A stretch of DNA of 64,000 nt, taken from Patescibacteria group bacterium. GTDB lineage: Bacteria; Patescibacteriota; Minisyncoccia; Phycocordibacterales; JAKAEA01. The DNA lies in assembly GCA_040387855.1 (NCBI GenBank), contig JAZKCY010000001.1:104396-168395 (forward strand), in the 5' to 3' direction. The notes below the pieces were generated by a model. It had not been told where the DNA came from. It made no database searches and saw nothing but the letters and a program-made list of their open reading frames with translations. How positions within the stretch are numbered: position 1 is the stretch's first letter; every line of letters begins with the position of its first letter. A program made the position numbers and the translations under genes. This document shows, one piece after another, positions 15,727 to 59,916 of the stretch.

Positions 15727-16578
15727 ATGAAAACATACCGACCAACAACAAAATCACGCCGAAATATGACCTCCATCAACTATGGAGACTATTTAACAGC
15801 GTCAGAACCACAGAAGTCACTTACTCATGGTTTCAAGCGATCAGTAGGACGCAACCATCATGGTAAAGTAACAACTCGACATAAGGGTTCAGGCCACAAG
15901 CGACTCTATCGAGATGTTGATTTCTCATACAACAAGTATGAAATCCCTGCAAAGATTGCAACTATCGAATATGATCCAAACCGAACAGGATTTATTGCAC
16001 TTGCAGTATATGCAGACGGAGAAAAGCGATACATTCTCGCTCCAAAATCAATGCGAGTAGGAGATACTTTCATTGTATCTGAGAAGGCAGATGTAAAGCC
16101 TGGAAACAGACTTCCATTAAGCAAAATCCCTGTAGGAACATTTGTATATAACGTAGAATTAAAGAAGAACGGAGGAGCAAAGATTGCTCGATCAGCAGGA
16201 AACTTCGTAGAAGTGATCGGTCATGATGCAGGATTTGCATTCATCAAAATGCCTTCAAGTGAAGTTCGACGAGTTGTTGATACAGGATTTGCATCAGTAG
16301 GAACCGTATCAAACGATGAAAACCGACTTGTTAATCTTGGAAAAGCGGGACGAAGTCGATGGTTGGGAATTCGACCAACAGTTCGAGGTACTGCCATGAA
16401 CCCAGTAGACCACCCATACGGAGGAGGAGAAGGACGACAGGGACGAGGAACTCGACGAGCAAAGTCTGTATACGGAAAGCCAACAGGAAAGGGACAGAAG
16501 TCACGACGAGCAAAGAAGTACTCAAACGTCTTCATTGTTTCTCGACGAAAAGTTGGAAAGAAGAAGGACAACAAATAA
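15727..16578 (+). CDS. rplB: 50S ribosomal protein L2
   Basis: 283 aa with an intact C-terminus, L2 family. Confidence 0.95.
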   Translation: MKTYRPTTKSRRNMTSINYGDYLTASEPQKSLTHGFKRSVGRNHHGKVTTRHKGSGHKRLYRDVDFSYNKYEIPAKIATIEYDPNRTGFIALAVYADGEKRYILAPKSMRVGDTFIVSEKADVKPGNRLPLSKIPVGTFVYNVELKKNGGAKIARSAGNFVEVIGHDAGFAFIKMPSSEVRRVVDTGFASVGTVSNDENRLVNLGKAGRSRWLGIRPTVRGTAMNPVDHPYGGGEGRQGRGTRRAKSVYGKPTGKGQKSRRAKKYSNVFIVSRRKVGKKKDNK

Positions 16579-16591
16579 TACTCCATACAAA

Positions 16592-16620
16592 AATCCCCAC
16601 CATCTGGTTGGGGTTTTTTG
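16592..16620 (+). terminator. rho-independent terminator immediately after rplB
   Basis: CCCCACC-ATCT-GGTTGGGG hairpin followed by TTTTTTG. Confidence 0.65.
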
Positions 16621-16624
16621 TTTG

Positions 16625-16652
16625 TTGACAAAACACAGAAATACTATATAAC
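16625..16652 (+). promoter_or_regulatory. sigma70-like promoter (TTGACA, 16-nt spacer, TATAAC) upstream of the MYG1 gene
   Basis: Hexamers read directly from the sequence. Confidence 0.45.
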
Positions 16653-16706
16653 TACGCACAGAATCCAGCTCGCGTGAGTATGGAAGGGGAGACACATGTT
16701 TAAAAC

Positions 16707-17618
16707 ATGGGAGAACTCGTGAACGACAAGCTTCCGATTCGTTGGTCAGGCGAGAAGCTGGTGGCATGCACTCACAGCGGACGGTTTCATGGTGATGAAA
16801 TCCATGCTGCCGGCGTCTTGGCTGCCCGCGGCATGGTTAACGAGTTTCGGCGGAGCCGAGACCCTGCAGTGCTCGCCACGTGTGATCTGCGTTTCGACGT
16901 GGGCTACATGTACGATTCAGCCACTATGGACTTCGACCACCATCAAGACGGTGGAGCCGGTGTTCGGGACAACGGTGTGCCGTATGCATCGGCCGGGCTT
17001 ATCTGGGCTCACTTCGGCCATGAGTTGTGCAACGACGATGCCGAGGTACATGCAGAGGTCGACAGGATCCTGTTCCAGCCGATCGACGCACGGGATGTGG
17101 GCTACGACAAGCACATCAAGGCTGGCCAGGGGCTCGTCTACGGCATTTCCGACGACATCCGTCGTCGCAACCCGCCGCCGTTTAGTGACGTAAATTCGGA
17201 CGCTGTCTTCTTAGAGGTGGTGGAGGAGGCCAGGCGTCGTATTGTCGCGGAAGTCGCACTCGTGACGACCGATCTCCGGATCATTCCTCCGTATATCGAG
17301 CGAATGCTCGCTGTTGCGGATACGCCGGGGCTGCTCGTGCTCGACATCGCCTACGACTGGCCCAAGGTTATGCAGAAGTACGCCCCGAACATCTCGGTGA
17401 TCGTCTTTCCGAGCGAAGACGAGAGCGGCTGGAGAGTTCAGTCGGTCAACCTGCAGAAGAGACCGTTGCCTCGTTTATGGGCTGGCAAAAACGGCGCGGA
17501 CATGGTGAAAGCCTCGGGTGTGGCAGACGCACAGTTCTGCAACGCTAAGGGTTATCTCGCCAGTGCCCAAAGCATGGAAGGCGCCGTGGCTTTAGCAGAA
17601 ATCGTGCTTCGAATATAG
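16707..17618 (+). CDS. MYG1/UPF0160-family metal-dependent hydrolase (3'-5' exonuclease-type), high GC (about 59%)
   Basis: Contains CTHSGRFHGDE, RSRDP, CDLRFDVG, DHHQ and SAGLIWAHFGH, matching the conserved MYG1 motifs across the full length. Composition is foreign relative to the surrounding ribosomal-protein genes. Confidence 0.85.
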   Translation: MGELVNDKLPIRWSGEKLVACTHSGRFHGDEIHAAGVLAARGMVNEFRRSRDPAVLATCDLRFDVGYMYDSATMDFDHHQDGGAGVRDNGVPYASAGLIWAHFGHELCNDDAEVHAEVDRILFQPIDARDVGYDKHIKAGQGLVYGISDDIRRRNPPPFSDVNSDAVFLEVVEEARRRIVAEVALVTTDLRIIPPYIERMLAVADTPGLLVLDIAYDWPKVMQKYAPNISVIVFPSEDESGWRVQSVNLQKRPLPRLWAGKNGADMVKASGVADAQFCNAKGYLASAQSMEGAVALAEIVLRI

Positions 17619-17619
17619 G

Positions 17620-17655
17620 AGGAGATCGACTCGTCGGTCTTGCTCCTTTTTTTTA
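17620..17655 (+). terminator. rho-independent terminator after the high-GC MYG1 gene
   Basis: GGAGATCGAC...GTCGGTCTTGCTCC imperfect hairpin followed by T8. Confidence 0.5.
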
Positions 17656-17681
17656 TACCTCTACAGTGATACGATATATCT

Positions 17682-18629
17682 ATGTTTACTACTATCTACA
17701 TTCCCACAAGAATTCAAAACGATACTGCATCAGCAATTTTTATATTAAAGAAATATGGCCGAGAAAAATTTCCAGGGATTGAAAACGCAAAGATAGAAAT
17801 TAGATCTGTTATACCTGTAGGTTTTACTGAAGAAGCTTTGGAAAAAGAGGGGATAGTACTTGTTGATATTGGAAAGGGTAAATTTGATCACCATGGCTCA
17901 GAAGTACAAATTACTTCAACCGATCTCGTATGTAAATTCTTGGGTGTTATAGATAATCCAGCATTAGAAAAGCTTCGAAAATATGTGGAGCGATGTGACT
18001 TTTTTGGTAAAGGCATTATTTCAAATGATCCATTAGATAGAGCTTTTGGATTGCCAGGGCTCCTTATAAATTTAAATAAAAAGCATAACTCAGAGCCAAA
18101 TTCTGTGTACCCAATAATTGCCGAACTTTTTGATGCTCACGTTTTAGAAGAAGAACAGCGTACAGTAGGGTTACCAAAAGAAGTTGAAGAAAAAACCACA
18201 GCTGGATTGGTGGATATATTTAGCCTCAAGCATCATGGCAAAAATATTAAGTGCATCTATATTGCTTCAGATAATATCAGCCTTTCAGGATACCTTCGTT
18301 CTCAAATGGGCGGAGCATATGATGTTGCGATTATTCATATGAGCACAGGACATATAAATATTATGACTCGTCCTGCCAAGCGTGTTGATTTACATGCTCT
18401 CATTGCTGTCATACGCCGCTCAGAGCTTATGAAACGTGGTGACGTGAAGCTCTACACCAATGATCTTCTTTCTCAGACAGGCCGCTTTGATAAGGTCCCT
18501 CAGTGGTATTATGATCCTGCTACAAACTCACTTCAAAACGGAGGGATCAATCCAGGGCAAATAGAAAAGACTGTACTCTCTCGAAAAGAAATAATTGAAT
18601 TGGTGAAAGTGGGATTGGGAGATAGATAA
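17682..18629 (+). CDS. divergent MYG1-like paralog (low GC); the N-terminal His/Asp metal motif is not conserved
   Basis: VLVDIGKGKFDHHG aligns to the DVG..DHHQ region of the upstream MYG1, but the THxGxFHxDE block reads TRIQNDTASA. Confidence 0.5.
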   Translation: MFTTIYIPTRIQNDTASAIFILKKYGREKFPGIENAKIEIRSVIPVGFTEEALEKEGIVLVDIGKGKFDHHGSEVQITSTDLVCKFLGVIDNPALEKLRKYVERCDFFGKGIISNDPLDRAFGLPGLLINLNKKHNSEPNSVYPIIAELFDAHVLEEEQRTVGLPKEVEEKTTAGLVDIFSLKHHGKNIKCIYIASDNISLSGYLRSQMGGAYDVAIIHMSTGHINIMTRPAKRVDLHALIAVIRRSELMKRGDVKLYTNDLLSQTGRFDKVPQWYYDPATNSLQNGGINPGQIEKTVLSRKEIIELVKVGLGDR

Positions 18630-18637
18630 TATTTTTT

Positions 18638-19087
18638 ATGATTATAGAACCAGATCAGCACTATTATGAAAATGGGAAATATGTGTGGACTCCTGAAAAA
18701 AGGGCTGCTGCGTGGGAAAAATGTTTTACTGTTTTAGAACAAGAAGCGACATCTGGAAAATTTAAAAAGATAGTGATGCTTATTGGCATTCCAGGAGCAG
18801 GGAAGAGTACCTACACTAAAGCTCATGATAGTGAGTCTACTATTATATTTGATGGAGTCTTTGTAAATCCGAAAGAACGGGAACGAGCTATTACTATTGC
18901 ACATTCAACAGGCCTTCCGATTGAAGGGGTGTGGCTTAATACACCTTTAGAAATATGTTTGGAAAGAAATGCTCAAAGAACTGATGATAGAAAGGTACGG
19001 GAGGATCATGTAACTATGATGTATGAGAATTTACAGAAAAATAAGCCTCGTTTAGAAGAGGGATATACGACATTTATAGAGCAATAA
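18638..19087 (+). CDS. small P-loop NTPase/kinase (AAA_33 / polynucleotide-kinase-like)
   Basis: 149 aa with Walker A GIPGAGKST, a downstream D/R-rich lid, and a size and architecture resembling Pnk/zeta-type kinase domains. Confidence 0.55.
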   Translation: MIIEPDQHYYENGKYVWTPEKRAAAWEKCFTVLEQEATSGKFKKIVMLIGIPGAGKSTYTKAHDSESTIIFDGVFVNPKERERAITIAHSTGLPIEGVWLNTPLEICLERNAQRTDDRKVREDHVTMMYENLQKNKPRLEEGYTTFIEQ

Positions 19088-19093
19088 AGACAC

Positions 19094-19121
19094 TTGACAA
19101 TATATATAGCTGTGCTATAAT
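19094..19121 (+). promoter_or_regulatory. consensus sigma70 promoter (TTGACA, 16-nt spacer, TATAAT) for the 19172 gene
   Basis: Perfect hexamers read directly from the sequence. Confidence 0.55.
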
Positions 19122-19171
19122 ATACACCGTACCAGTTCCGTCAGTTTTCACCTACTAGAAAGGGTCATTCC

Positions 19172-19855
19172 ATGACCGCTTCGTCCACCCCCAGCGTCGC
19201 TTCCGCCAAGATCCTGATGTCCAGCCTCCGCACCGTGAACCGGTTCGTGCTGAACTTCCAGGTCGAGGGCCTGCGCCCGCCGAGCAACTTCCCGCCGATC
19301 CGCGAGTGCGCCCCCCTCACCACGGGGACCAAGGCGCCCAAGCAGGTCGAGCGCGGCGAGAAGCTCGTCGAGCGGACCCGCGAGGTCTGCTCGCTCGATG
19401 CCCCGAGCATCATCAGCGCCTGCTTTGACGCCGGCCTGATCTACTGCAAGATGCTCATGCTCCCCAAGGGTCCGCCCACGGTCAGCATGCGCTTCAAGCG
19501 GCAGACGGAGCAGACCGACGCGGTCGCCCCGAACGACGCCAACTACCTCACGACGGAGATCGAGACGATCTACGGTCCGTGGATGGTGATGCTCCAGGGC
19601 TCGCTCCGGCTCGACTGCAACTTCGACCCCTACGGGCTCACCGTGGAGGAGGAGGCCGAGTACCTGCGGAAGCGCTACCGGAACGCCGGCACGCACAACG
19701 CGACGGAGATCGAGCGCAAGGTCAAGCAAGAGGCCACGGGCACGCCGTACCTCCTGACCGGGACGCACTACGTCGAGGCCCTGCGGCTCACCCCGCCGGC
19801 CTACCACAGGCTGTTCGCCCACGAGGGTGCGCTCCTGCTCGACGGCGAGCTCTAG
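19172..19855 (+). CDS. hypothetical protein, very high GC (about 65%, strongly GC3-biased), unknown function
   Basis: 227 aa with normal amino-acid composition and GC-ending codons. The overlapping minus-strand ORF 19148..19969 is judged to be a high-GC antisense artefact. Confidence 0.6.
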   Translation: MTASSTPSVASAKILMSSLRTVNRFVLNFQVEGLRPPSNFPPIRECAPLTTGTKAPKQVERGEKLVERTREVCSLDAPSIISACFDAGLIYCKMLMLPKGPPTVSMRFKRQTEQTDAVAPNDANYLTTEIETIYGPWMVMLQGSLRLDCNFDPYGLTVEEEAEYLRKRYRNAGTHNATEIERKVKQEATGTPYLLTGTHYVEALRLTPPAYHRLFAHEGALLLDGEL

Positions 19856-19911
19856 GTCGATGTTCGACCCAGCGTTTTGATGAACAATACCCCAAACTAG
19901 AAAGGTGAACA

Positions 19912-19940
19912 GGCCGATGCATAAACTGCATCGGCCTTTC
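19912..19940 (+). terminator. rho-independent terminator after the 19172 gene
   Basis: GGCCGATGCA-TAAAC-TGCATCGGCC perfect 10-bp stem followed by TTT. Confidence 0.6.
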
Positions 19941-19953
19941 ACTTGGGAAAGAT

Positions 19954-19980
19954 TTGACATGCTCCACACTTTCGTATAAT
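19954..19980 (+). promoter_or_regulatory. consensus sigma70 promoter (TTGACA, 15-nt spacer, TATAAT) re-initiating the rpsS-rplV-rpsC... operon
   Basis: Hexamers read directly from the sequence. Confidence 0.55.
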
Positions 19981-20031
19981 ATGTGACTCACGCTCTGAAC
20001 TAGAGCTCTTTTGTTTCATATATATCTATCC

Positions 20032-20385
20032 ATGGCACGATCACTCAAAAAAGGACCATACGTTGACGAAAAGCTTCTCAAGAAAATTGAGGGCAAAAAG
20101 CCACAGGCTACTGGGGTTATTAAGACCTGGGCACGTGCAAGTCAGATTTCACCAGAAATGGTAGGTTTTATCTTTGGCGTTCACAACGGTAAGGATCATA
20201 TCGAAGTTTTGGTATCTGAAGAAATGGTGGGTCATCGTCTTGGTGAATTTTCTCCAACAAAGAAATTCCTACGACACGGAGGTAAGATGCAGAAGGAGCT
20301 TGAACAGAAAAAGAAGGAATCAGAAATTGCAGCAGCGCAATCTGCTAAGGCTGCAACAGCTGATGCCGGTGCTAAGAAAAAATAA
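20032..20385 (+). CDS. rpsS: 30S ribosomal protein S19 (Lys/Ala-rich C-terminal extension)
   Basis: [12 protein letters not shown] matches S19. The start is placed at the internal ATG of the ORF listed from 20011. Confidence 0.9.
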
Positions 20386-46345: not shown

Positions 46346-47641
46346 TTAGAAGAACTTGAGCATGAAGGTGATGATGATGAACAATACACCCAGGATGCTC
46401 ACGCTCCAGATGATGTAGCCAAAGAACGAAGGCATCGAGATCCCGCGCCGTTTGGCAATGGCGAAGATCATAAAGTTTGGCGCATTGCCAATGTAGGTGA
46501 GTGCCCCCATATACACGGCGCCAAGACTGATGGCCTTCACGAGGTCTGGTGATTGTGCTGTCAGGTGGGGAAGCGAGGTCGAACCCGTTGTCGATTCGGC
46601 CATCGACATGAATACCAGGAACGTCGGCGCATTGTCGAGCACCGACGAGAACACACCGGTTGCCCAGAAGTACTGTGCTGGCTCGCTCACTCCAAGCGAC
46701 GAACCTGAATGCTGCAGCAGCTGCAGTGCTGGGACCATTGTCATGAAGATCCCGGCGAATACGACTGCCACCTCCACTATCGGTCCGAACTCGAAGTTGT
46801 TTTTTTGTCGCGCCTCTTTTGCAATTGGCGCGAGCTTCGAGTACACGAGTGATATGACGATGGTGATCACGAAGATCACTTCACGCCACGGGCTCGCTAC
46901 CGCAATGACACTGCCTACGATCACCATCATGAGCACTGCATTGCCAAGGCCGATGAGCATGAGTGGCTCCACATGCTCTTTGTCTTGAGCAATATCTTCG
47001 TTGGACTCCTTGTTGTAAAAGTACTTGTCGATCACGAGGTACACAGCGAGCAACACGATGCCGCTCACCAACCAGTAGACCCAAAGATTTCGGGCAAACC
47101 AGAAGAATTCGATTCCTCGCAAGTAGCCGAGGAAGAGCGGTGGGTCACCGAGGGGAGTGAGTAACCCTCCGAGATTGCTTACCAAAAAGATGAAAAACAC
47201 GACAGTATGCCGCACGTGTTTTCGTTCTTGGTTGCTTCGCAATAGTGGATAGATCATGAGGATCGAGGCACCCATTGTGCCCACAACACTCGCCATGATG
47301 TATCCGCTCGCAAGCATCATCGCATTGCGGCCCGGCGTTGCTCGCAGATCACCCTTGATGTGGATGCCTGAGGCAACGATGAACAGCGCAGCGAGGAGCA
47401 GTATGAACTGCACAAATTCGATCCCCGCATGCACGATCAAGTTTCGATCGTGCTGTGCCACGTAGATGGCAACTGGTAAGCCGAGCGTGAGGATCACGCA
47501 CAATTTCACCCAGTTTTTTTCCCACGCATGCTTGGTAAAGCTCACGAGGGGAAGGACTGCGATGAGGCCGAGCAGCACCGCAAACGGCACTACCGACCAC
47601 AGTGTTGGAATCCACGAACTTGCTGCAAGTGATGAAATCAC
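46346..47641 (-). CDS. ArsB/NhaD-superfamily permease (putative ion/anion transporter), elevated GC (about 54%)
   Basis: LTPLGDPPLFLGY matches the TPxGDPPN-type motif, with multi-TM topology. A GTG start sits behind a GAGAGGG Shine-Dalgarno. Confidence 0.6.
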   Translation of the reverse strand: MISSLAASSWIPTLWSVVPFAVLLGLIAVLPLVSFTKHAWEKNWVKLCVILTLGLPVAIYVAQHDRNLIVHAGIEFVQFILLLAALFIVASGIHIKGDLRATPGRNAMMLASGYIMASVVGTMGASILMIYPLLRSNQERKHVRHTVVFFIFLVSNLGGLLTPLGDPPLFLGYLRGIEFFWFARNLWVYWLVSGIVLLAVYLVIDKYFYNKESNEDIAQDKEHVEPLMLIGLGNAVLMMVIVGSVIAVASPWREVIFVITIVISLVYSKLAPIAKEARQKNNFEFGPIVEVAVVFAGIFMTMVPALQLLQHSGSSLGVSEPAQYFWATGVFSSVLDNAPTFLVFMSMAESTTGSTSLPHLTAQSPDLVKAISLGAVYMGALTYIGNAPNFMIFAIAKRRGISMPSFFGYIIWSVSILGVLFIIITFMLKFF

Positions 47642-47777
47642 GACACCCTCTCTGTAAGAACAATTGAATCCGTTCAATCGACGGTCAGACTTTTAAATAC
47701 CACATTATATATATAAAGTCAATATACTAGCAAATAAAAAACCATGAAGCGCGATGGTTTGTCGCGCACTCATGGTG

Positions 47778-48173
47778 TTAAATACTTAGCCCGATTTCTA
47801 TCCGCAAAAGCTCTGAACACCTCTGCATGTCTTCAATCGGTAAGACATGTGCTTCCTTGAAATCTCGATGTCGATCTCTTACTTCTGGGATATCAAACAC
47901 CGACTTCTTGATCATCCGGAAGCAGGCAGGATCATTTTTGATGATTGCCCAGTCTTCACCGGAACCGATGATGATTCCGCATACAAAAGCGATCCACATG
48001 TCCCACGCCTTGAACGAGTGTAGCTCGTCGTTGGGAACTTCCGGTTTCCACGTGGGCAGTGGGCCTGGGTTAAACTTTGCCTGTCCGCGTTGGAAGTAAA
48101 TCATCGAGGTCGTGGGATTGTTTCTTCCATACACCCACAGACACTCAACCGCTGGCAGTTTCACAGACATCAA
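47778..48173 (-). CDS. hypothetical protein, moderately elevated GC
   Basis: 131 aa ORF followed by an ACCAT...ATGGT hairpin and T-run. Confidence 0.4.
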   Translation of the reverse strand: MMSVKLPAVECLWVYGRNNPTTSMIYFQRGQAKFNPGPLPTWKPEVPNDELHSFKAWDMWIAFVCGIIIGSGEDWAIIKNDPACFRMIKKSVFDIPEVRDRHRDFKEAHVLPIEDMQRCSELLRIEIGLSI

Positions 48174-48245
48174 TACCTCCTCGGTTTTGTACAGTAAAGG
48201 TACCGTAGATGATAGTACTAAAATCCAATAAAAAGGCCAGTCGAT

Positions 48246-48449
48246 TTATTTAACTAGATATTTGCCGGCAACACTGAGTGCAAATGAAGGTAAAATAATA
48301 CACACAGTAGTTTGAAGTAATCTAATAAGCACAATGTTGAAGACGGTGCTTCCATCACCATCAGGAGGAGTTGTTGCAATTAGAAGGATGCCAATAATAC
48401 CGAAAGCTATAGATGCGTAGATAAATATTTTAGTAGCAATAGGTTGCAT
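48246..48449 (-). CDS. small membrane protein
   Basis: 67 aa, 2 TM. Confidence 0.35.
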   Translation of the reverse strand: MQPIATKIFIYASIAFGIIGILLIATTPPDGDGSTVFNIVLIRLLQTTVCIILPSFALSVAGKYLVK

Positions 48450-48460
48450 AGAAGTAGTAA

Positions 48461-48664
48461 TTATTTTTTATATTCCAAAACATCACCTGGCTGGCAGTCT
48501 AATGCTTTGCAGATTGCATCAAGAGTTGTAAGTCGTACTGCTTTTGCTTTGCCGTTTTTCAAGATAGAAAGATTGGCCATAGTAATGCCCACTTTTTCTG
48601 TGAGTTCAGTAACGCTCATTTTTCGCTTTGCAAGCATAACGTCAATGTTGATAATAATTGCCAT
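48461..48664 (-). CDS. small XRE-family HTH transcriptional regulator (YozG-like)
   Basis: MSVTELTEKVGITMANLSILKNGKAKAVRLTTLDAICKALDCQPGD. Confidence 0.8.
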   Translation of the reverse strand: MAIIINIDVMLAKRKMSVTELTEKVGITMANLSILKNGKAKAVRLTTLDAICKALDCQPGDVLEYKK

Positions 48665-48671
48665 AAATAGT

Positions 48672-49190
48672 TTATACAGTTAATTCGTTTTCCTTTTTAA
48701 TATCAACAACATTCTGTAAGAGTTTTTGTAGTACACCTGCAAAGGTGGCAATGATAAGTGGTGAACATACAAACGTCATTGCAAAAAGAATGAGTCCAGG
48801 TGCATCATCTCCATCAGCAATAAAAAATGCGAGCGGCATAATAAATACATAACACAAGGTCATACTACCTGCGCAGTACTTTATTGTTTTTAGAGCATTC
48901 ACTGATTCCTGAGAGAACGCAGTGTTCTTATCAATGTATGTTAAAAGCTTGAGACCTTGATAGAGTGCGATGAAAAAGGGAATAGCACTGAGATATAGTC
49001 CTACAAATGCGAAAGGTTGCGACTCTTTAATTCCTGGCCACTCAAGTGCCATTCCTCTATATATGTGAGGGAATGCAAAAATGCAGAGGGCGAGTACCGC
49101 GAGTCCAAATACGATAATGACTGCTTTTAAAAATAATGTTGATCCTTTATTCATAAAACTATGATTAGTTGATGATAAAGAGCTTAGCAT
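48672..49190 (-). CDS. DUF2975-like membrane protein (the usual partner of YozG-like HTH)
   Basis: 172 aa, 4 TM, with the conserved gene pairing. Confidence 0.5.
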   Translation of the reverse strand: MLSSLSSTNHSFMNKGSTLFLKAVIIVFGLAVLALCIFAFPHIYRGMALEWPGIKESQPFAFVGLYLSAIPFFIALYQGLKLLTYIDKNTAFSQESVNALKTIKYCAGSMTLCYVFIMPLAFFIADGDDAPGLILFAMTFVCSPLIIATFAGVLQKLLQNVVDIKKENELTV

Positions 49191-49265
49191 GGCGTATATC
49201 GTAAGTCAATAAATATATATTGTTTTATTATTTTGACTATAAAAAAAGCACTAATGACTTTAGTG

Positions 49266-49892
49266 CTATTTCGATGTATTGCGAACTGCGGCGAAGCATG
49301 TATTCTCCCAAGGGACCCTGAGATCCTGCCCTCCGGTCATGAAGTAGTTTGGAGCGAGTTGGAGTACTCGCTTGTTACTAATCTTCATGAGTACTGGGTT
49401 GTACCCAACGTGGGGTGGGCTCGTGTTGGTTTTATCAAACACCATTTCCCCAAGTGCCAGTACGATGTGGTCGTTCTGGAACTCGGGGTATTTGGCGCCG
49501 AAGGCCAAGAGCTCGACGAGATTTGCCGGACGGCAGTCGTTGTCGACGATGATCTTTAGGATGTCGTTCGTACGCATACTGCGTTCGAACGAAAACATGA
49601 CCATCGTTTCTTCAGCGCTCGCTCGAGTGGTGTCCGAAATTGTACGCGGAATTCGCGGGTTAACCTCCACATACGTACCACGCTCGATATACTCATGCGA
49701 GCTGAGTGTCCGATCAACGGCAACCGAAAATTCTTTCGTTCGAACTTCTGGTCCCGATTCCTTGATCGGGTTCGTCATCGCTTTTTCCTGGGCCTCCTTC
49801 ATCAACCGCTCGCCCTCGTTGTGGGGCGCGCAGCCGATGGTGAGGCCGAGGATCATGACGATGAGGAACGACAGACGGGGAAGCAGTGACAT
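49266..49892 (-). CDS. lipoprotein of unknown function, high GC (about 57%)
   Basis: Signal peptide with lipobox LTIGC. Confidence 0.55.
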   Translation of the reverse strand: MSLLPRLSFLIVMILGLTIGCAPHNEGERLMKEAQEKAMTNPIKESGPEVRTKEFSVAVDRTLSSHEYIERGTYVEVNPRIPRTISDTTRASAEETMVMFSFERSMRTNDILKIIVDNDCRPANLVELLAFGAKYPEFQNDHIVLALGEMVFDKTNTSPPHVGYNPVLMKISNKRVLQLAPNYFMTGGQDLRVPWENTCFAAVRNTSK

Positions 49893-50058
49893 GGTTTCTC
49901 CTTGCAGGGCGCACTGGCTTTTAGTTTCTGCACATGCAGTTACTTCTTGCCAGTAAAGAACGGATCATCAGTACTACATCATATTTAATAATATAAGTCA
50001 AATATAGTTTTTAAATAAAAAACCGCACTACATACACATTGTGTAGACAGGCGGCGAA

Positions 50059-51132
50059 TCAAGTTTGAGGTTTACCTAAAGAACGGAGCAGTCTGTAGTG
50101 GGACACAATGGCCAACCACATCGTGTCGTGTGAGTGGTAGGTCAGTTCGTGGCGTTTGCAGACCCGTCGTACGAGCCTGCAAATTTTGGGGTAGTGGATG
50201 TGGGAAATCCTGGGGAAGAGGTGGTGCTCGATCTGGTAATTTAATCCTCCTAGGAACCAGGTGAGCACTTTGTTTTTTGGAGCGAAGTTGGCCGTCGTGA
50301 GCACTTGATGCTCCGCCCACGCATTTTCCATTGCTCCCTGTTCGGGGTCTGGAAGCGGGAACTTTGTTTCTTCCACTACATGGGCAAGTTGGAATACGAC
50401 GGCAAGTACCACACCCATACACCAACTGGCGAAAAGGTACACGAGCACTACCTGCCAGAACGGATGGAAGAGCGAAGGGATGACAAACGCCCATGTATAG
50501 AACAGAAGCTTGCCTCCAATGAACGTTGCTAGATGCACTCCTCGTGGGCGCGCGAACGGATATTTCCCGATCCGTCCACGTATGACGTTGAGGAAGTCAT
50601 CGAAGAGTTGCCACTTCACAGGAACCAATCCGTACACAAACCACAAATAAATGTGTTGCACGCGGTGAAACCAAAGCCTGGGTTGCGTGGGCGCGAGACG
50701 CCCTAAGATCCCAGTATTGATGTCATCGTCATGCTCCGCAATATTTGTGTATGTGTGATGGACGATGTTGTGCTTGTGCGTCCACACGTACGAACTTCCC
50801 CCTATGGCATCGAGTGAGAATGCAGCGAGACGGTTGATCCATCGGTGTTTTGAAAACGCCTGATGATTCCCGTCGTGCTGAATGCAAAACCCGATTCCTG
50901 CCATCGCCAATCCAATGCTCATGGCGAGCAACATCGCTTGCCACCACGCGGTGGCAAAGAATACGAGCACGATGTAGCTCGCTGCTAGCCACAGCATGAG
51001 CGTGACCGCCTTCACGTAGAGGTCGGCAGTAGCATGGCGACTGCGCTTGGTCATCGCAAAGTAGCGATCCACCGTTTTTTTGAGGTCAGAGAAAAAATCG
51101 CTACGCTTCCGAAACTTGACTGGGGTGATCAT
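50059..51132 (-). CDS. membrane fatty-acid desaturase family protein, high GC
   Basis: Three His boxes: HDGNH, HNIVHH and HQIEHH. Start at the ATG behind GAAAGGAGGG. Confidence 0.8.
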   Translation of the reverse strand: MITPVKFRKRSDFFSDLKKTVDRYFAMTKRSRHATADLYVKAVTLMLWLAASYIVLVFFATAWWQAMLLAMSIGLAMAGIGFCIQHDGNHQAFSKHRWINRLAAFSLDAIGGSSYVWTHKHNIVHHTYTNIAEHDDDINTGILGRLAPTQPRLWFHRVQHIYLWFVYGLVPVKWQLFDDFLNVIRGRIGKYPFARPRGVHLATFIGGKLLFYTWAFVIPSLFHPFWQVVLVYLFASWCMGVVLAVVFQLAHVVEETKFPLPDPEQGAMENAWAEHQVLTTANFAPKNKVLTWFLGGLNYQIEHHLFPRISHIHYPKICRLVRRVCKRHELTYHSHDTMWLAIVSHYRLLRSLGKPQT

Positions 51133-51237
51133 GACACCCTCCTTTCGTTGTAATGCAATTGGTGCTGGTCCAACCAAAGTATACCATCTTGGATGTATAT
51201 TAATTTGAAAGCAGAATCGCAAAGAAATAAAAAGTAC

Positions 51238-52008
51238 CTATACCTCAGAATTCAATATCATTTCAATTTCTTTTTTTACATCCTCATCACTCTTTGTAGG
51301 CATGAGATCTCCTTTTTGATTTCCATAATTACCAGCTTGAGCATGATTCATTCCTTCAATAGGGAAGTCTCTCTGTGACGTTGGAAGATTGCTGCTATAT
51401 GCTGAGAGTTTTTCAGGAGTTAATACACCATCAAGAGAACCATGAATATTTACTACCTTAAAGTTTTTACTTGATACATCGCTGTTGCAGTAGGTTCCTA
51501 CTAAGAGTAATGTCTCAAACTTTTCTGCATGATTTTTTGCATACTCACATGCCATTGCTCCTCCCATTGAATGACCGCCAAGAGTCCATGTTTTTATTTC
51601 AGGATGTGTATCAATTATTTTACCAGCTTGGCCAATACTAAATATCGCGAGATTTAAAGGAGGTTTAGTAACAAACAATATAGAAGGAGAAGAAGTGCTG
51701 GTGACAATACTTTCTAATTTATAAAAGTAAGCTTGAGGATCAACTTTTGCTCCAGGATAATAGATAACTCCTTTTGTAGATGTTGTCGCATTAGGAGCAA
51801 TCTCCCAGTATTTTGGATGCTCAGTTACTGTTATAAGATCTTTATTTGTATTTAAAAATTCTTGAAGTTTAGTTTGATCGGCTTTGTAAATTTGCTTTGC
51901 CCAGATTACAAAAGAAATAACAGCGATCAATAGGAGCGTTATAAGCGTAAGAACTATTTTCCTCCAGAGCTTCATTTTCTTAGGGGTAGGTTGGATAGCG
52001 GTTTGCAT
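51238..52008 (-). CDS. alpha/beta-hydrolase (lipase/esterase-like) with N-terminal TM anchor
   Basis: GHSMGG nucleophile elbow. The start is placed at the internal ATG so it does not overlap the upstream gene. Confidence 0.6.
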   Translation of the reverse strand: MQTAIQPTPKKMKLWRKIVLTLITLLLIAVISFVIWAKQIYKADQTKLQEFLNTNKDLITVTEHPKYWEIAPNATTSTKGVIYYPGAKVDPQAYFYKLESIVTSTSSPSILFVTKPPLNLAIFSIGQAGKIIDTHPEIKTWTLGGHSMGGAMACEYAKNHAEKFETLLLVGTYCNSDVSSKNFKVVNIHGSLDGVLTPEKLSAYSSNLPTSQRDFPIEGMNHAQAGNYGNQKGDLMPTKSDEDVKKEIEMILNSEV

Positions 52009-52138
52009 AAAATATATTATAAAGTGTTTTTTGTTTGTAGGATATTCATAAATAAAAAACTGCGAGATGCATAGAGATGTGAATCTCTCGGCTTTCTCGC
52101 AATAAGTTGGTTGGATGATCCTAACCGATCTTTTCCCT

Positions 52139-52816
52139 TCATTCCTCACTAAGAGGAAATTGGGTCGGAAGTTTCTCGACATGACGTACCATGACATCGA
52201 AACCTCTAAGAATTGTTGGCACGTCTACGCCCGAAAGCTTCACGTGTCCGAATCCCATCTGCCCCATGTCGAGAATCGTGACAACCGTCTCATTTGTCTC
52301 CACCTTGACCTCGATCCTTAAGATGCAGGAAAACTCGGAATCACCGATGCCTTCCAGCCTGCTCTTGAAGTGAGGTAACATCCCGAGCTTGGTGGCGTTG
52401 GACAAGACCCTGTCAGGGATTTCATACATCGCCACGACTTTGCACGGACCGGAGCGCATCTTGAAATACGTAGGGGCCCCAGGTTGCTTGTCGCCGAAGA
52501 CCCGCACGAAATCGTCCGCATCAGTCTCAACTTTATGCTGTGCTGTCACGGGTAAGGACAGCACTAAGGATGTGTCATCCTTAAATTCGGCTTTCCCTCC
52601 ATGAACACCGAATTTAGCCAGAAAGTCGCCGGCAATGTCTTCACCCAGCCTACGTGCTCCTTCTGGTGCCTGAAGATACCATTCCCTCTGGTCACCAGTG
52701 AACCCCGTTCCGATCAAGCGCACTTGAGGATTTCCCGATTTCACAATGCCTCCAAGGCAAGGGTTGTTTGATGAGAACTCTAAGAGGAAATTATAATAAA
52801 ATACATGAGTTGTCAA
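52139..52816 (-). CDS. hypothetical protein, high GC
   Basis: 225 aa ORF with coding-like composition and no recognised family. Confidence 0.45.
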   Translation of the reverse strand: MTTHVFYYNFLLEFSSNNPCLGGIVKSGNPQVRLIGTGFTGDQREWYLQAPEGARRLGEDIAGDFLAKFGVHGGKAEFKDDTSLVLSLPVTAQHKVETDADDFVRVFGDKQPGAPTYFKMRSGPCKVVAMYEIPDRVLSNATKLGMLPHFKSRLEGIGDSEFSCILRIEVKVETNETVVTILDMGQMGFGHVKLSGVDVPTILRGFDVMVRHVEKLPTQFPLSEE

Positions 52817-52899
52817 TTTTATTGTGAAAGTATCTAAAAGAAATAAAAATCCGCAAGAGAGTCGAGGAGAGAATTGAATCTCTCGCGGCTTTCTTGCGG

Positions 52900-53238
52900 C
52901 TACTCATCTTGCATGTGAAGCGACAACCTGATCATCGTGAACCATCTCGCAGGCACGAAATGTGTCGTCTTGAATTCCCCGGGTGTTCGTTCGTGGGGGA
53001 AGTTCACGACCTTACCCGTCTCAGGGGTGTAGGTGGTCAGCCCCATTTCGTTGGGGTTGCAGTTTATGAACTCGGAGTAGAGCTCATCAGGGTCGTTGGG
53101 ATGTACACCCATCACCCCTCGTTCATCTGCCCGGAATCTCCGGATGATCTCGATGACCTCTCCGACTTCATGCCAGCCCCAACTCGCATATGGTTCTGGA
53201 ATGTCTTTGAATCGATGCAAAGCGGGTAACACTTTCAC
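52900..53238 (-). CDS. hypothetical protein, high GC
   Basis: 112 aa ORF with a GTG start behind an AAGGA Shine-Dalgarno. Confidence 0.4.
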   Translation of the reverse strand: MKVLPALHRFKDIPEPYASWGWHEVGEVIEIIRRFRADERGVMGVHPNDPDELYSEFINCNPNEMGLTTYTPETGKVVNFPHERTPGEFKTTHFVPARWFTMIRLSLHMQDE

Positions 53239-53344
53239 GTTTATTCCTTACCACCTTATGGTGGCTGCATAGGAATCTGTTCTTACCTTGGGCTCCCAAG
53301 GTTTCTGCCATTGGTTATATAAAAAATAATAGAAGACTGCAAGT

Positions 53345-53372
53345 AATAAAAAGCCCCGCTAGCATGCCGGGG
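53345..53372 (-). terminator. rho-independent terminator overlapping the stop codon of the 53359 gene
   Basis: CCCCG-CTAGCATGC-CGGGG followed by CTTTTTATT on the - strand. Confidence 0.5.
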
Positions 53373-53739
53373 TGAGACTGCGGGCTCGATTGATGAGCAC
53401 TTCCAAATAGCTGTGCACATCATAATCGAACCACTTCTTTGGACTGTTCGGGTTGAGAATCTTGTCCCTGCTAAACGCCACATGCCCGAGTGGTTCACAC
53501 GCATCCGCAAGATCAGGATAACCTCTCGGCCAGGTTGGCGGATGATGATATCCGGTATAGAGTGTCGCGTCGATAAGGCACGGCTTGTGGTGTGGCAGGG
53601 AACTGAGCTTCACATCCCATGGTACAACTTTAAGCGTGATGAACCCTCGGGCTTTTATGATCCCGAAGATGATCGGCGACAACATTCGCCGCTGGTCCAA
53701 TGGAACGTCGTGAACGACAGTGAGCAACGTAAGAATCAT
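53359..53739 (-). CDS. hypothetical protein, high GC
   Basis: 126 aa ORF with an ATG start behind an AGGAGGG Shine-Dalgarno. Confidence 0.45.
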   Translation of the reverse strand: MILTLLTVVHDVPLDQRRMLSPIIFGIIKARGFITLKVVPWDVKLSSLPHHKPCLIDATLYTGYHHPPTWPRGYPDLADACEPLGHVAFSRDKILNPNSPKKWFDYDVHSYLEVLINRARSLTPAC

Positions 53740-53833
53740 AATATCCCTCCTGGAGAAGATAATACGTCACGGGAGGGAATTGGCAAGAGATTATCAAATA
53801 GCTTTTTATGCTCAACTATTAGATAATTGTAAA

Positions 53834-55654: not shown

Positions 55655-56326
55655 TTAAGAAACAAAACTTAAGAATTCATCACCAAAGTTTGTTGTCCTT
55701 TTCGCAAGCATACCTGAACTACTAGTCGTGGCATGGAGCGTGCCTTTTAAAGTTAACCCTTTTGCTTCAAGGTCCTGATATATCAAATCGTAGAACTCTC
55801 TTTTTCCACGAAGTTCAGGATATACTTCTTCCATAAATGTTGTTGCGCCACCCATTGAATATTTATCAAGGTTTACTCCATTAGTTATACAAGCATTTTT
55901 AGGGTCACTAAAATAATGCAAAATTTTAATATGCCAAGGAGTAATGTTATCAATGTATGATAAAAAGATCAGCTTCATATTATTGCTTATGGTTATATTT
56001 CTTGCTGTATTAACTATTGCGTTTTTTAAAGCATCTAGTTTTTCTTGTTCGTGATTTCTAATAGCAATTTGGGATGCATGAATGAAGACTGTAATAAACT
56101 CAGGATTATTCATCAGCTTTTCTTTTGATATAGATTCATCTTCAAGTCTGTTTATTCTCTCTGCCATTTCATTAAACCATTGGGTTTTTCGGGTTTCGAG
56201 CGGAGTATTTACTAAACCAAGTAGTTCTAATGCTGGCCCACCAATAGCAGGAATCATGGAAGCTACAATTTTTGTAATAAACATTGCATGATCGCCAACG
56301 GTTTCTTTTTCTGGGAGTTTACCCAT
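55655..56326 (-). CDS. hypothetical protein (possibly Abi/defence-like; unassigned)
   Basis: 223 aa soluble protein adjacent to the ssrA locus. Confidence 0.35.
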   Translation of the reverse strand: MGKLPEKETVGDHAMFITKIVASMIPAIGGPALELLGLVNTPLETRKTQWFNEMAERINRLEDESISKEKLMNNPEFITVFIHASQIAIRNHEQEKLDALKNAIVNTARNITISNNMKLIFLSYIDNITPWHIKILHYFSDPKNACITNGVNLDKYSMGGATTFMEEVYPELRGKREFYDLIYQDLEAKGLTLKGTLHATTSSSGMLAKRTTNFGDEFLSFVS

Positions 56327-56380
56327 GCTGCGATTATACTCCTGTGATAAAAATCAGCAAATTCATAGGTTCGATTCCCA

Positions 56381-56626
56381 TCATGTCCACATGCTTATTA
56401 GCTTCTCCTTCTTATCTCTTCGCCATTTTTTAATCTGAATTTCTCTTTTGCGAGCAGAGGCCAATGTTGCATGTGTTTCAAGAAACACTATTTTGAATTC
56501 TGATTTAAATTTTGTGTAGTAAGCACCTCGCCCAGAGTTGTGCTCAGCTAATCTCCTTTGTGGTTCATCGGTTACTCCAATATATAAATTGTTATAGGAG
56601 TTTTTTATCATGTAGACGTAGTACAT
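56381..56626 (-). CDS. small GIY-YIG nuclease-superfamily protein (UPF0213/YhbQ-like)
   Basis: YVYMIKNSYNNLYIGVT...RRLAEHN...KKW. Confidence 0.7.
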   Translation of the reverse strand: MYYVYMIKNSYNNLYIGVTDEPQRRLAEHNSGRGAYYTKFKSEFKIVFLETHATLASARKREIQIKKWRRDKKEKLISMWT

Positions 56627-56732
56627 GAGAGGAGTATGAAACAGGGAAGGTGAAACAGATATAAAGAAAAGATAAACACAGAAAAGCCCGTTCGACTCCT
56701 CGAAGACTCGTCGCTCAGGGCACTCGATTCGC

Positions 56733-56770
56733 AGTAACAAAAAACACTACTGTTTTAACAATAGTGTTTT
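56733..56770 (-). terminator. rho-independent terminator of ssrA
   Basis: AAAACACTA / TAGTGTTTT 9-bp stem, followed on the - strand by TTTTTTGTT. Confidence 0.55.
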
Positions 56771-56817
56771 AGGTGGCTTGCCACGAGTGATCCTGCGTTC
56801 TTGCGCGGCGAATCGAG

Positions 56818-57226
56818 TGGAGATGGCGGGAATCGAACCCGCGTGCAAAAGAAGTTCTTAAATGGGTCTACAATGTATAGAGAATCTTAACCACCCGAAG
56901 GTGGGTTTAAACGCAGTGGGTAAAAAGATAATCAAAATTCCCACGTTGCCGAGTCCCTTTATTTCGATCAATCATCGGAACGAGTGAAAGATCTATCTCA
57001 ACGATATACCACCAACACTTAGTAAGTTGAGAAAAAACTAAGGTGGCGTCGTCTGGCTACCGTTTAAAGGGGTTTACGCGAGAGCGAAAGCGAAGTTACT
57101 TGCGTAAGGCGAAGCAACTGCTGTTCGTGCTGATTTTGCACTTGAAGTTTCCGTCAGATTTAAGAGTTAACGGTGCTCTACATTGCGCAGATAAGAAACA
57201 AACTCTTGTCTAGGCCGATCATCCCC
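56818..57226 (-). ncRNA. ssrA: tmRNA (transfer-messenger RNA)
   Basis: The 5' GGGGATG pairs with the 3' CATCTCC-A, including the G3:U70 alanine identity pair. The T-arm reads GCGGGTTCGATTCCCGC. There is an internal in-frame tag ORF ...AVASPYASNFAFALA* ending in TAA. smpB lies immediately upstream. Confidence 0.85.
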
Positions 57227-59835: not shown

Positions 59836-59842
59836 AAAAATG

Positions 59843-59916
59843 TCCACCCTCTTGGATTCGAACCAAGGACCACCGAGGTATAAGCTCGGTGCTCTAACCA
59901 ACTGAGCTAAGGGTGG
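59843..59916 (-). tRNA. tRNA with anticodon UAU (Ile-type, AUA-reading), 74 nt, CCA not encoded
   Basis: Manual fold: acceptor CCACCCT/AGGGTGG, D-arm GCTC-AGTTGGTTA-GAGC, anticodon arm CCGAG-CTTATAC-CTCGG, variable loop TGGTC, T-arm CTTGG-TTCGAAT-CCAAG, discriminator A. Confidence 0.75.

What the first reader, a model, noticed from the sequence alone, without database searches (positions are those of the whole stretch)
52139..53739. Three consecutive high-GC genes of unknown function with their own Shine-Dalgarno sites and terminators
The 225-, 112- and 126-aa proteins show no recognisable motifs by eye. All three are on the minus strand and all are GC3-rich. The last is followed by a terminator whose hairpin contains its own stop codon. 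They could be one acquired functional unit such as a toxin/immunity or small-molecule modification set. Nothing in the sequence tells which.
Basis: seen in the sequence. Interest (0 to 1): 0.5.

Follow-up and report, generated by a model that had tools for sequence, protein, structure and literature searches.

The report
Three foreign orphan genes in a Parcubacterium
Three small genes with no detectable relatives sit side by side in an ultra-small (Patescibacteria) bacterium; their GC-rich codons and ribosome-binding sites, which the host's own genes lack, mark them as imported DNA, each looks separately transcribed, and their function is unknown.

Summary
Three minus-strand ORFs, A 52139-52744 (201 aa from GTG), B 52900-53238 (112 aa) and C 53359-53739 (126 aa), have about 52% GC and GC3 of 0.58-0.65, in a genome of about 38% GC with GC3 of 0.19-0.34. 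All three score as coding in the stated frame (0-1 of 1000 shuffles reach the score). Each has a Shine-Dalgarno site and a 3' hairpin with a T-run.

This is a low-GC Parcubacteria/Patescibacteria MAG, not an actinobacterium. The three genes belong to a mosaic of at least nine GC-rich genes in the window. SD sites occur before 7 of 9 GC-rich genes and 1 of 55 host-type genes (p = 4.5e-7), and many host genes look leaderless.

No relative was found in 5.8 billion protein clusters (all three), 1.84 billion HMMER representatives (A only), Pfam, NCBIfam, PHROGs, PADLOC, PDB, phages, plasmids or IMG/VR. Single-sequence AlphaFold2 failed.

The spacing (120 and 155 nt), separate promoter-like sites and separate terminators argue against an operon or a toxin/immunity pair.

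Best reading: horizontally acquired orphan cargo genes, probably co-acquired, since A and B have homologous terminators. Function is unknown. This is an ordinary kind of feature and of modest interest.

The parts
53359..53739 (-). Gene C: 126-aa orphan ORF with ATG start, pI 8.8 and no TM segment. It is the weakest of the three gene calls.
   Evidence: GC3 0.61; codon score 0.199; 0 of 1000 shuffles; only self; called in the Logan assembly, not at NCBI.
53745..53786 (-). Upstream signals of C. A promoter-like TTGCCA-16-TATTAT lies at 53759-53786 and the SD GGAGGG at 53745-53750. A UCCCUCC stretch in the leader can pair with the SD.
   Evidence: fold (not better than shuffles).
53345..53372 (-). 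Weak terminator-like hairpin of C (CCCCG / CGGGG). The TAG stop is in the loop, followed by CTTTTTATT.
   Evidence: -9.2 kcal/mol, z = 0.1.
52900..53238 (-). Gene B: 112-aa orphan ORF with GTG start (PGAP aa from TTG). Acidic and soluble.
   Evidence: GC3 0.65; score 0.208; 1 of 1000; MES2436558.1; AF2 pLDDT 37.7.
53245..53342 (-). Upstream region of B. It holds a weak promoter-like TTGCAG-17-TATAAC (53314-53342), a 75-nt leader with two small hairpins, and the SD AAGGA (53245-53249).
   Evidence: z = -1.6; no Rfam match.
52841..52899 (-). Terminator of B: a 49-nt hairpin plus ATTTTTATTT. It is homologous to the terminator of A.
   Evidence: -24.9 kcal/mol, z = -3.5.
52139..52744 (-). Gene A: 201-aa orphan ORF with GTG start. 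Acidic and soluble. The N-terminal ~65 residues are modelled as a beta-beta-alpha-beta-beta sandwich.
   Evidence: GC3 0.58; score 0.200; 0 of 1000; only self among 1.84 billion representatives; MES2436557.1.
52749..52816 (-). Upstream signals of A: consensus promoter TTGACA-15-TATAAT (52790-52816), a 45-nt leader, and SD GGAGG (52749-52753).
52050..52103 (-). Terminator of A: a 45-nt hairpin plus GTTTTTTATTT. It shares the core GAAAGCCG(C)GAGAGATTCA with B's terminator and shows two compensatory pair changes in the outer stem.
   Evidence: (z = -2.8).
46346..53739 (-). The wider mosaic of eleven minus-strand genes. Seven are GC-rich and carry an SD: CitMHS_2 transporter, orf130, lipoprotein-like orf208, fatty-acid desaturase, A, B and C. 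Four are host-type: mem67, HTH_26, DUF2975 and an alpha/beta hydrolase.

Best explanation
A, B and C are three horizontally acquired orphan protein-coding genes in a mosaic accessory region of a low-GC Parcubacteria (Patescibacteria) genome.

Shown:
- Their base composition, codon usage and translation-initiation signals (45-75-nt leaders for A and B, an SD on all three) belong to a foreign gene class. The class has at least nine members in this window.
- The host's own genes lack SD sites, and many look leaderless.

Inferred:
- The three came in together as one segment of about 1.75 kb from a donor that uses SD sites and has roughly 53-56% GC. The grounds are their similar GC3 and codon usage and the homologous terminators of A and B.
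- They are organised as three monocistronic units. Each has a sigma-70-like promoter, a leader with an SD, an ORF and a hairpin terminator.
- They therefore encode three small soluble cytoplasmic proteins made independently, not a stoichiometric pair or an enzyme operon.

Their biochemical role cannot be read from the sequence. The most likely category is dispensable mobilome-type cargo. Whether it is translated at all by a host that may lack SD-dependent initiation is open.
For: Foreign class:
- GC3 is 0.58-0.65 against 0.19-0.34 for host genes.
- The GC-rich codon model beats the host model by +0.23 to +0.32 per codon, against -0.28 to -0.44 for host-type neighbours.
- An SD core at proper spacing is present in 7 of 9 GC-rich genes and 1 of 55 host genes, Fisher p = 4.5e-7. 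A -10 box 4-12 nt before the start codon (leaderless-like) is present in 20 of 55 host genes and 0 of 9 GC-rich genes.
- The anti-SD motif is reported missing in about half of Parcubacteria (PMC9297842).

Real coding sequence:
- The stated frame scores best of six, and only 0-1 of 1000 shuffles reach it.
- Two independent gene callers agree on the calls for A and B. C is called only in the Logan assembly.

Orphans:
- Only self-hits among 5.8 billion clusters and, for A, among 1.84 billion HMMER representatives.
- The 90% clusters are singletons or hold only start-site variants from this genome.
- No family or PDB hit.

Separate units:
- Spacers are 120 and 155 nt.
- Promoter-like sites are present and terminators follow each gene.

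Co-acquisition:
- The terminators of A and B share a core of about 20 nt, found only at these two sites in 64 kb, with compensatory stem changes.

Variable region:
- None of the genes between 44 and 56 kb, apart from a small HTH protein, is present in 80 smpB loci of relatives. FtsH and RecG on the other side are syntenic.

Assembly:
- A second assembly (Logan, SRR26324620) gives the same arrangement.
Against: - No donor, homologue or strain variant was found. Acquisition therefore rests on composition and initiation signals, not on phylogeny.
- No integrase, transposase or flanking repeats mark an insertion.
- The closest relatives in the comparison share only up to 66% SmpB identity, so 'absent in relatives' is weak evidence.
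- Intact ORFs with unameliorated GC3 are equally compatible with recent, unselected and unexpressed DNA.
- C's strand is not settled by purine bias, and PGAP did not call it.
- The internal spacers (GC 0.37-0.40) differ little from other spacers, so a single-segment origin is not proven.
- Structure prediction gave no usable fold, so 'soluble independent proteins' is inferred from hydropathy and gene layout only.
Confidence: 0.7

Rival explanations
1. The three genes form one functional module. It could be a toxin/immunity or defence set, or a small-molecule modification set, whose products act together.
For: They are adjacent, on the same strand and of the same composition class. A and B share a terminator family, which suggests a common history. 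The neighbourhood has a weak mobile or defence flavour: orf223 has weak Abi_alpha, CdiI and PHROG hits, and a GIY-YIG gene lies nearby.
Against: Each gene has its own promoter-like site and terminator, with gaps of 120 and 155 nt. Toxin-antitoxin pairs are normally co-transcribed with short or overlapping junctions (established knowledge). There are no hits in PADLOC, Pfam, NCBIfam or PHROGs. There are no enzyme domains in any frame. There is no DNA-binding antitoxin-like domain. There are no homologues with which to test co-occurrence.
Confidence: 0.1
2. The segment is recently imported DNA that is not functional in this host. The ORFs were genes in the donor, but here they are silent or untranslated passengers that have not yet decayed.
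For: GC3 is unameliorated. The SD-led leaders sit in a genome whose own genes have no SD and are often leaderless. Many Parcubacteria lack the anti-SD (PMC9297842). There are no homologues or variants to show purifying selection. C was not called by PGAP. AlphaFold2 could not fold B or most of A.
Against: All three ORFs, and all seven GC-rich ORFs of the mosaic, are intact. A has a perfect TTGACA/TATAAT promoter. The terminators of A and B keep their pairing through compensatory changes. GC-rich neighbours with known families (desaturase, CitMHS_2, MYG1) have full-length domain matches.
Confidence: 0.25
3. The three genes were acquired in separate events from different donors and are adjacent only because this region tolerates insertions.
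For: The wider region is a fine mosaic of foreign and host-type genes. Each gene is a self-contained unit. GC3 differs slightly between them: 0.58, 0.65 and 0.61.
Against: The terminators of A and B are homologous and unique to these two sites in 64 kb. Codon usage is similar. No host-type sequence longer than a promoter separates them.
Confidence: 0.2
4. The feature is an artefact: a chimeric assembly or binning contamination, or spurious ORFs in GC-rich non-coding DNA.
For: It is a MAG. Long stop-free antisense ORFs overlap B and C. ORF length alone is not significant for B.
Against: GC-rich ORFs alternate with host-type DNA on a scale of a few hundred bases, inside a 981-kb contig. A second assembler reproduced the arrangement. 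The frame-specific codon signal is strong. Start codons are preceded by SD sites and stop codons are followed by terminators.
Confidence: 0.04

Closest known systems
Orphan (ORFan) genes carried on prokaryotic genomic islands, the 'novel gene pool' of islands (Hsiao et al. 2005, PLoS Genet 1:e62; seen only as a reference in PMC12455944; content from my own knowledge)
   Same: These are compositionally deviant, short genes without detectable homologues. They are clustered in a region that is not shared with relatives and that also carries accessory functions (a transporter, a desaturase).
   Different: No integrase, no direct repeats and no sharp island borders were found. The region is a gene-by-gene mosaic with host-type genes. 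The foreign genes are richer in GC than the host, and each is a separate transcription unit.
Horizontal gene transfer and genomic islands in Patescibacteria (PMC12455944, mSystems 2025)
   Same: That study reports hundreds of islands and individually transferred genes in groundwater Patescibacteria, with donors both inside and outside the phylum and many hypothetical genes. The present locus fits that picture.
   Different: Here the donor is unsampled: there is no homologue at all. The imported genes can also be recognised by a translation-signal difference (SD against no SD). I did not find that difference described there, but I read only the passages shown.
Parcubacteria lacking the anti-Shine-Dalgarno motif in 16S rRNA (Tsurumaki et al. 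2022, RNA 28:1041; PMC9297842)
   Same: Host-type genes in this window have essentially no SD (1 of 55). That fits the reported loss of the anti-SD in about half of Parcubacteria.
   Different: The 16S rRNA of this genome is outside the window, so loss of the anti-SD was not tested here. That paper does not deal with SD-bearing imported genes.
Type II toxin-antitoxin, or polymorphic toxin/immunity, gene pairs
   Same: Small adjacent genes on the same strand in a variable region.
   Different: There is no co-transcription layout, no family match, no DNA-binding antitoxin domain, and there are three genes rather than a pair.
tmRNA (ssrA)-associated integrative islands (Williams 2002-2003; my own knowledge)
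   Same: The variable region lies on the 3' side of the tmRNA gene (56815-57226). The other side (SmpB, FtsH, RecG) is syntenic in relatives.
   Different: There is no integrase. There is no direct repeat of the tmRNA 3' end, only a 23-nt inverted copy that brackets a GIY-YIG gene. A, B and C lie 3-4.7 kb from the tmRNA, with host-type genes in between.

Membership tests
Orphan (taxonomically restricted) genes | No detectable homologue outside the genome | tested here: met
   Only self-hits among 5.8 billion clusters for A, B and C. Only self among 1.84 billion HMMER representatives for A. No tblastn hit in phages, plasmids or IMG/VR. B and C were not searched with full HMMER.
Orphan (taxonomically restricted) genes | Real protein-coding sequence, not a chance ORF | tested here: met
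   Frame-specific codon score of about 0.20 nats per codon, with 0-1 of 1000 shuffles reaching it. An SD precedes each start codon. The case is weaker for C. No expression data.
Horizontally acquired genomic island | Composition and codon usage deviate from the host | tested here: met
Horizontally acquired genomic island | Mobility gene (integrase, transposase or recombinase) | tested here: not met
   No such Pfam domain in the ORFs scanned between 38 and 64 kb. The only nuclease-type gene is a small GIY-YIG.
Horizontally acquired genomic island | Flanking direct repeats, or a duplicated tRNA/tmRNA 3' end | tested here: not met
   No repeat of 8 nt or more flanks A-B-C beyond chance. There is no direct copy of the tmRNA 3' end in the window.
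Horizontally acquired genomic island | Absent from the same site in related genomes | tested here: inconclusive
   The genes are absent from 80 smpB loci, but the nearest relative shares only 63-66% SmpB identity. The metagenome scan gave only two short contigs.
Toxin-antitoxin or toxin-immunity module | Co-transcribed genes with a short or overlapping junction | tested here: not met
   Gaps of 120 and 155 nt contain hairpin terminators and promoter-like sites.
Toxin-antitoxin or toxin-immunity module | Match to a known toxin, antitoxin, immunity or defence family | tested here: not met
   No hit in Pfam, NCBIfam, PHROGs or PADLOC at E <= 0.01. The only matches below 0.1 are single PHROG families of unknown function (E = 0.017 for B, 0.042 for C), treated as noise.
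Toxin-antitoxin or toxin-immunity module | Toxicity of one product neutralised by another | not testable with these tools
   Requires expression experiments.
Small-molecule modification or biosynthetic gene set | Recognisable enzyme domains | tested here: not met
   No Pfam family in any of the six frames across 52100-53800. No PDB sequence match below E = 0.003, and that match is to a designed repeat protein.
Integron gene-cassette array | Promoterless cassettes separated by attC sites, next to an intI integrase | tested here: not met
   Each gene has its own promoter-like site, and the hairpins are followed by T-runs, as in intrinsic terminators. No integrase was found in the ORFs scanned. 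attC was not searched with a dedicated model.

The most novel reading that the evidence does not exclude
The three proteins are founding members of new protein families. They come from an unsampled SD-using lineage of about 55% GC, possibly the physical host or a mobile element of the host of this episymbiont. They are nevertheless expressed in a Parcubacterium whose own genes start translation without an SD. The locus would then be a natural test case for how an SD-independent translation system handles imported SD-led mRNAs, and evidence for host-to-symbiont gene flow. A bolder variant is that this genome has a way of installing single foreign ORFs behind consensus promoters, even inside the rplB-rpsS ribosomal operon.
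Probability: 0.1. Interest if true: 0.6.

Novelty: new member of a known kind. Interest (0 to 1): 0.3.

Why it matters
Taken alone, the three genes add three more hypothetical proteins to a phylum full of them. What has some value is the context.

In this genome, imported genes can be told from native ones by two independent marks: GC3 and codon usage, and the presence of a Shine-Dalgarno site and leader. That gives a simple way to list recent imports in Parcubacteria that lack SD sites.

It also raises a testable question: are such genes translated at all? If they are, the locus bears on how ultra-small symbionts with reduced ribosomes make use of foreign DNA. If they are not, it shows that a sizeable part of the 'hypothetical' gene content of such MAGs may be untranslated cargo.

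Tried and rejected
Searches that found nothing:
- Pfam, NCBIfam, PHROGs and PADLOC on the three proteins and their neighbours.
- Pfam on the antisense ORFs and on all six frames.
- The word-indexed search of 5.8 billion clusters for all three proteins.
- Full HMMER for A.
- IMG/VR pattern scans.
- blastn and tblastn against phages and plasmids. The one hit, at E = 0.3 to a Streptomyces kinase, is noise.
- PDB sequence search.
- Rfam at a permissive threshold.

Structure:
- Single-sequence AlphaFold2 gave mean pLDDT 44.9 for A and 37.7 for B.

Ideas rejected:
- Paralogy among A, B, C and the other orphans: no pair below E = 0.17.
- Fragments of one disrupted gene. B and C share a frame but are separated by two stops, a terminator and a promoter. 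A is in another frame.
- Integron cassettes and a classical tmRNA island: no integrase, attC-like layout or direct repeats.
- Strain variants or recent donors: the 90% clusters of all GC-rich proteins are singletons or hold only start-site variants from this genome.

Inconclusive:
- Synteny through smpB loci and through the hydrolase gene in metagenomes gave no close relative. The insertion could not be shown by comparison.
- The ORF-length shuffle test is uninformative for short segments defined by the ORF itself.
Full report
**What is there**

The window has low GC, about 0.35-0.44 per kb. NCBI names its proteins as those of a 'Patescibacteria group bacterium' MAG with a 981,549-bp contig. 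The best SmpB, FtsH and RecG matches are Parcubacteria and Taylorbacteria MAGs, at 63-74% identity.

Three ORFs lie on the minus strand inside the reported interval:
- A, 52139-52744
- B, 52900-53238
- C, 53359-53739

The 225-aa reading of A begins at a TTG that is the first base of a TTGACA -35 box. The GTG at 52744, 4 nt after GGAGG, gives 201 aa. Both NCBI and an independent Logan assembly call it that way.

**Are they genes?**

GC is 0.52-0.53 and GC3 0.58-0.65. Host genes have GC3 of 0.19-0.34.

I trained a codon model on the three GC-rich genes of the window that have clear Pfam domains (CitMHS_2, fatty-acid desaturase, MYG1). It scores the stated frame highest of six for all three ORFs, at about 0.20 nats per codon. 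Leave-one-out scores for the training genes are 0.24-0.31. Of 1000 dinucleotide shuffles, 0, 1 and 0 reach the observed value in their best frame.

Purine bias at codon position 1 supports the minus strand for A and B but does not decide for C. C is also missing from the NCBI annotation, and a stop-free antisense ORF overlaps it. For C, the minus strand is favoured by the codon score (0.199 against 0.083), a GGAGGG 5 nt before the ATG, and a promoter-like site. ORF length alone is not informative.

No frame of the 1.7-kb stretch matches any Pfam family. A is in a different frame from B and C. So the three are not pieces of one broken known gene.

**Signals around them**

- A has TTGACA-15-TATAAT, a 45-nt leader and a GGAGG.
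- B has a weaker TTGCAG-17-TATAAC, a 75-nt leader and an AAGGA.
- C has TTGCCA-16-TATTAT and a GGAGGG.

A and B end in hairpins of 45-49 nt followed by T-runs, with z-scores of -2.8 and -3.5. These two hairpins share the core GAAAGCCG(C)GAGAGATTCA. It occurs nowhere else in the 64 kb. Their outer stems differ by two fully compensatory pairs, read from the sequences: C-G to U-A and A-U to G-C. They are therefore homologous and have been kept as hairpins.

C's hairpin is weak: 5 bp, -9.2 kcal/mol, z = 0.1.

The spacers are 120 and 155 nt. This is the layout of three monocistronic units, not of an operon.

**The wider pattern**

The three are part of a mosaic. From 46346 to 53739, eleven genes lie on the minus strand. 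Seven are GC-rich: a CitMHS_2 transporter, orf130, a lipoprotein-like orf208, a fatty-acid desaturase, and A, B and C. Four are host-type: a DUF2975/HTH_26/small membrane protein trio and an alpha/beta hydrolase. Two more GC-rich genes sit at 16.7-19.9 kb.

Under one uniform criterion, an SD core 4-12 nt before the start codon is present in 7 of 9 GC-rich genes and in 1 of 55 host-type genes (Fisher p = 4.5e-7). A -10 box 4-12 nt before the start, which suggests a leaderless mRNA, is present in 20 of 55 host genes and in none of the GC-rich ones.

A published survey found the anti-SD motif missing from the 16S rRNA in about half of Parcubacteria (PMC9297842). The genes appear to have arrived with their native ribosome-binding sites from donors that use an SD.

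From the usual relation between GC3 and genomic GC (my own knowledge, Muto and Osawa), a GC3 of about 0.6 points to a donor of roughly 53-56% GC. That is not a typical high-GC actinobacterium.

**Relatives**

None were found.
- The three proteins hit only themselves among 5.8 billion clusters.
- A hits only itself among 1.84 billion representatives read in full by HMMER.
- The 90% clusters of all nine GC-rich proteins are singletons or hold only start-site variants from this genome.
- Nothing turned up in IMG/VR, phage or plasmid collections, the PDB or the four family libraries.

**Protein properties**

The proteins show no TM segment and no recognisable signal peptide (the signal-peptide judgement is by eye, no predictor was run). 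A and B are acidic and C is basic. They are not similar to each other or to the other orphans.

**Is it an island, and how did it get there?**

The tmRNA gene is at 56815-57226. The SmpB-FtsH-RecG side is syntenic in relatives. None of the genes from 44 to 56 kb is found in 80 smpB loci, apart from one small HTH protein. The relatives are distant, so this is weak evidence.

No integrase or transposase was found in the ORFs scanned between 38 and 64 kb. No repeats flank A-B-C. There is no direct copy of the tmRNA 3' end. The arrangement is reproduced by a second assembler on SRR26324620.

So the region is a variable, mosaic accessory zone and not a classical integrative element. The means of entry is unknown.

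**Interpretation**

- Shown: three intact, compositionally foreign, SD-bearing orphan coding sequences.
- Shown from sequence signals only, without transcript data: each has its own promoter-like site and terminator.
- Inferred: A and B, and probably C, were co-acquired, given the shared terminator family and similar codon usage, and they are expressed separately.
- Not supported: a toxin/immunity or modification module.
- Open: whether they are translated or selected in this host. Recent silent cargo is a serious alternative (about 0.25).

This is a normal kind of finding for a genomic accessory region, and the function remains unknown. I rate interest at 0.3. Most of that is for the SD/no-SD contrast, which makes imported genes easy to recognise and raises a testable question about translating foreign mRNAs in Parcubacteria.

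Noticed in passing
window 16580-20010: Four plus-strand genes are inserted between ribosomal protein genes rplB (15727-16578) and rpsS (about 20011-20385), which are normally adjacent. They are a GC-rich MYG1-family gene (16707-17618, GC3 0.68), a host-type 315-aa ORF with no Pfam match that shares an FDHH tetrapeptide with the MYG1 gene (no significant similarity, E = 1.2), an AAA_33/zeta-toxin-like kinase (18638-19087), and a 227-aa orphan of 68% GC with GC3 of 0.96 (19172-19855). The orphan sits between a perfect TTGACA-16-TATAAT promoter and a hairpin. A second perfect promoter follows, ahead of rpsS.
   Followed up: partly
whole window (for example 57865, 56326, 52005, 29020, 32689, 34520, 38887): Host-type genes, including ribosomal protein genes, have essentially no Shine-Dalgarno site (1 of 55). 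In 20 of 55 a TATAAT-like box ends 4-12 nt before the start codon, which suggests widespread leaderless mRNAs. SD sites are confined to the GC-rich genes (7 of 9).
   Followed up: yes
window 56368-56390 and 56817-56839: A 23-nt inverted copy (87%) of the 3' end of the tmRNA gene lies 426 nt from the real 3' end. The two copies bracket a small GIY-YIG nuclease gene (56381-56740). This may be a mobile or homing element next to ssrA.
   Followed up: partly
window 59842-59916 (-): A tRNA-Ile with anticodon UAU. To my knowledge this is uncommon in bacteria, which usually read AUA with a lysidine-modified CAU tRNA.
   Followed up: no
window 48461-48664 (-) and L024 17285-17485: The 67-aa HTH_26 regulator next to a DUF2975 membrane protein is 85% identical to a sequence in a distantly related Patescibacteria MAG (SmpB only 57% identical). 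The high identity may reflect strong conservation or transfer within the phylum.
   Followed up: no
window 55655-56326 (-): A host-composition 223-aa protein has weak matches to Abi_alpha (E = 0.024), CdiI immunity (E = 0.006) and PHROG 26838 (E = 2.8e-5). It is a possible abortive-infection or phage-related gene beside the tmRNA.
   Followed up: no
window 53745-53778 (-): In the leader of gene C, a UCCCUCC stretch is complementary to the SD GGAGGGA 20 nt downstream. This could be an SD-sequestering hairpin, but it is not more stable than shuffled sequence (z = -0.5).
   Followed up: partly
window 46318, 47732, 50013, 52050, 52841 (-): Five of the GC-rich genes of the mosaic (CitMHS_2, orf130, desaturase, A, B) end in hairpins followed by a nearly identical tail, GG-TTTTTT-ATTT. 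Four of the five exact GTTTTTTATTT matches in the window (all on the minus strand) are at these sites.
   Followed up: partly
window 53359-53739 (-): Gene C is not in the NCBI annotation of this MAG. It is called only in the Logan assembly of SRR26324620. The NCBI start for B differs too (106 aa against 112 aa).
   Followed up: yes
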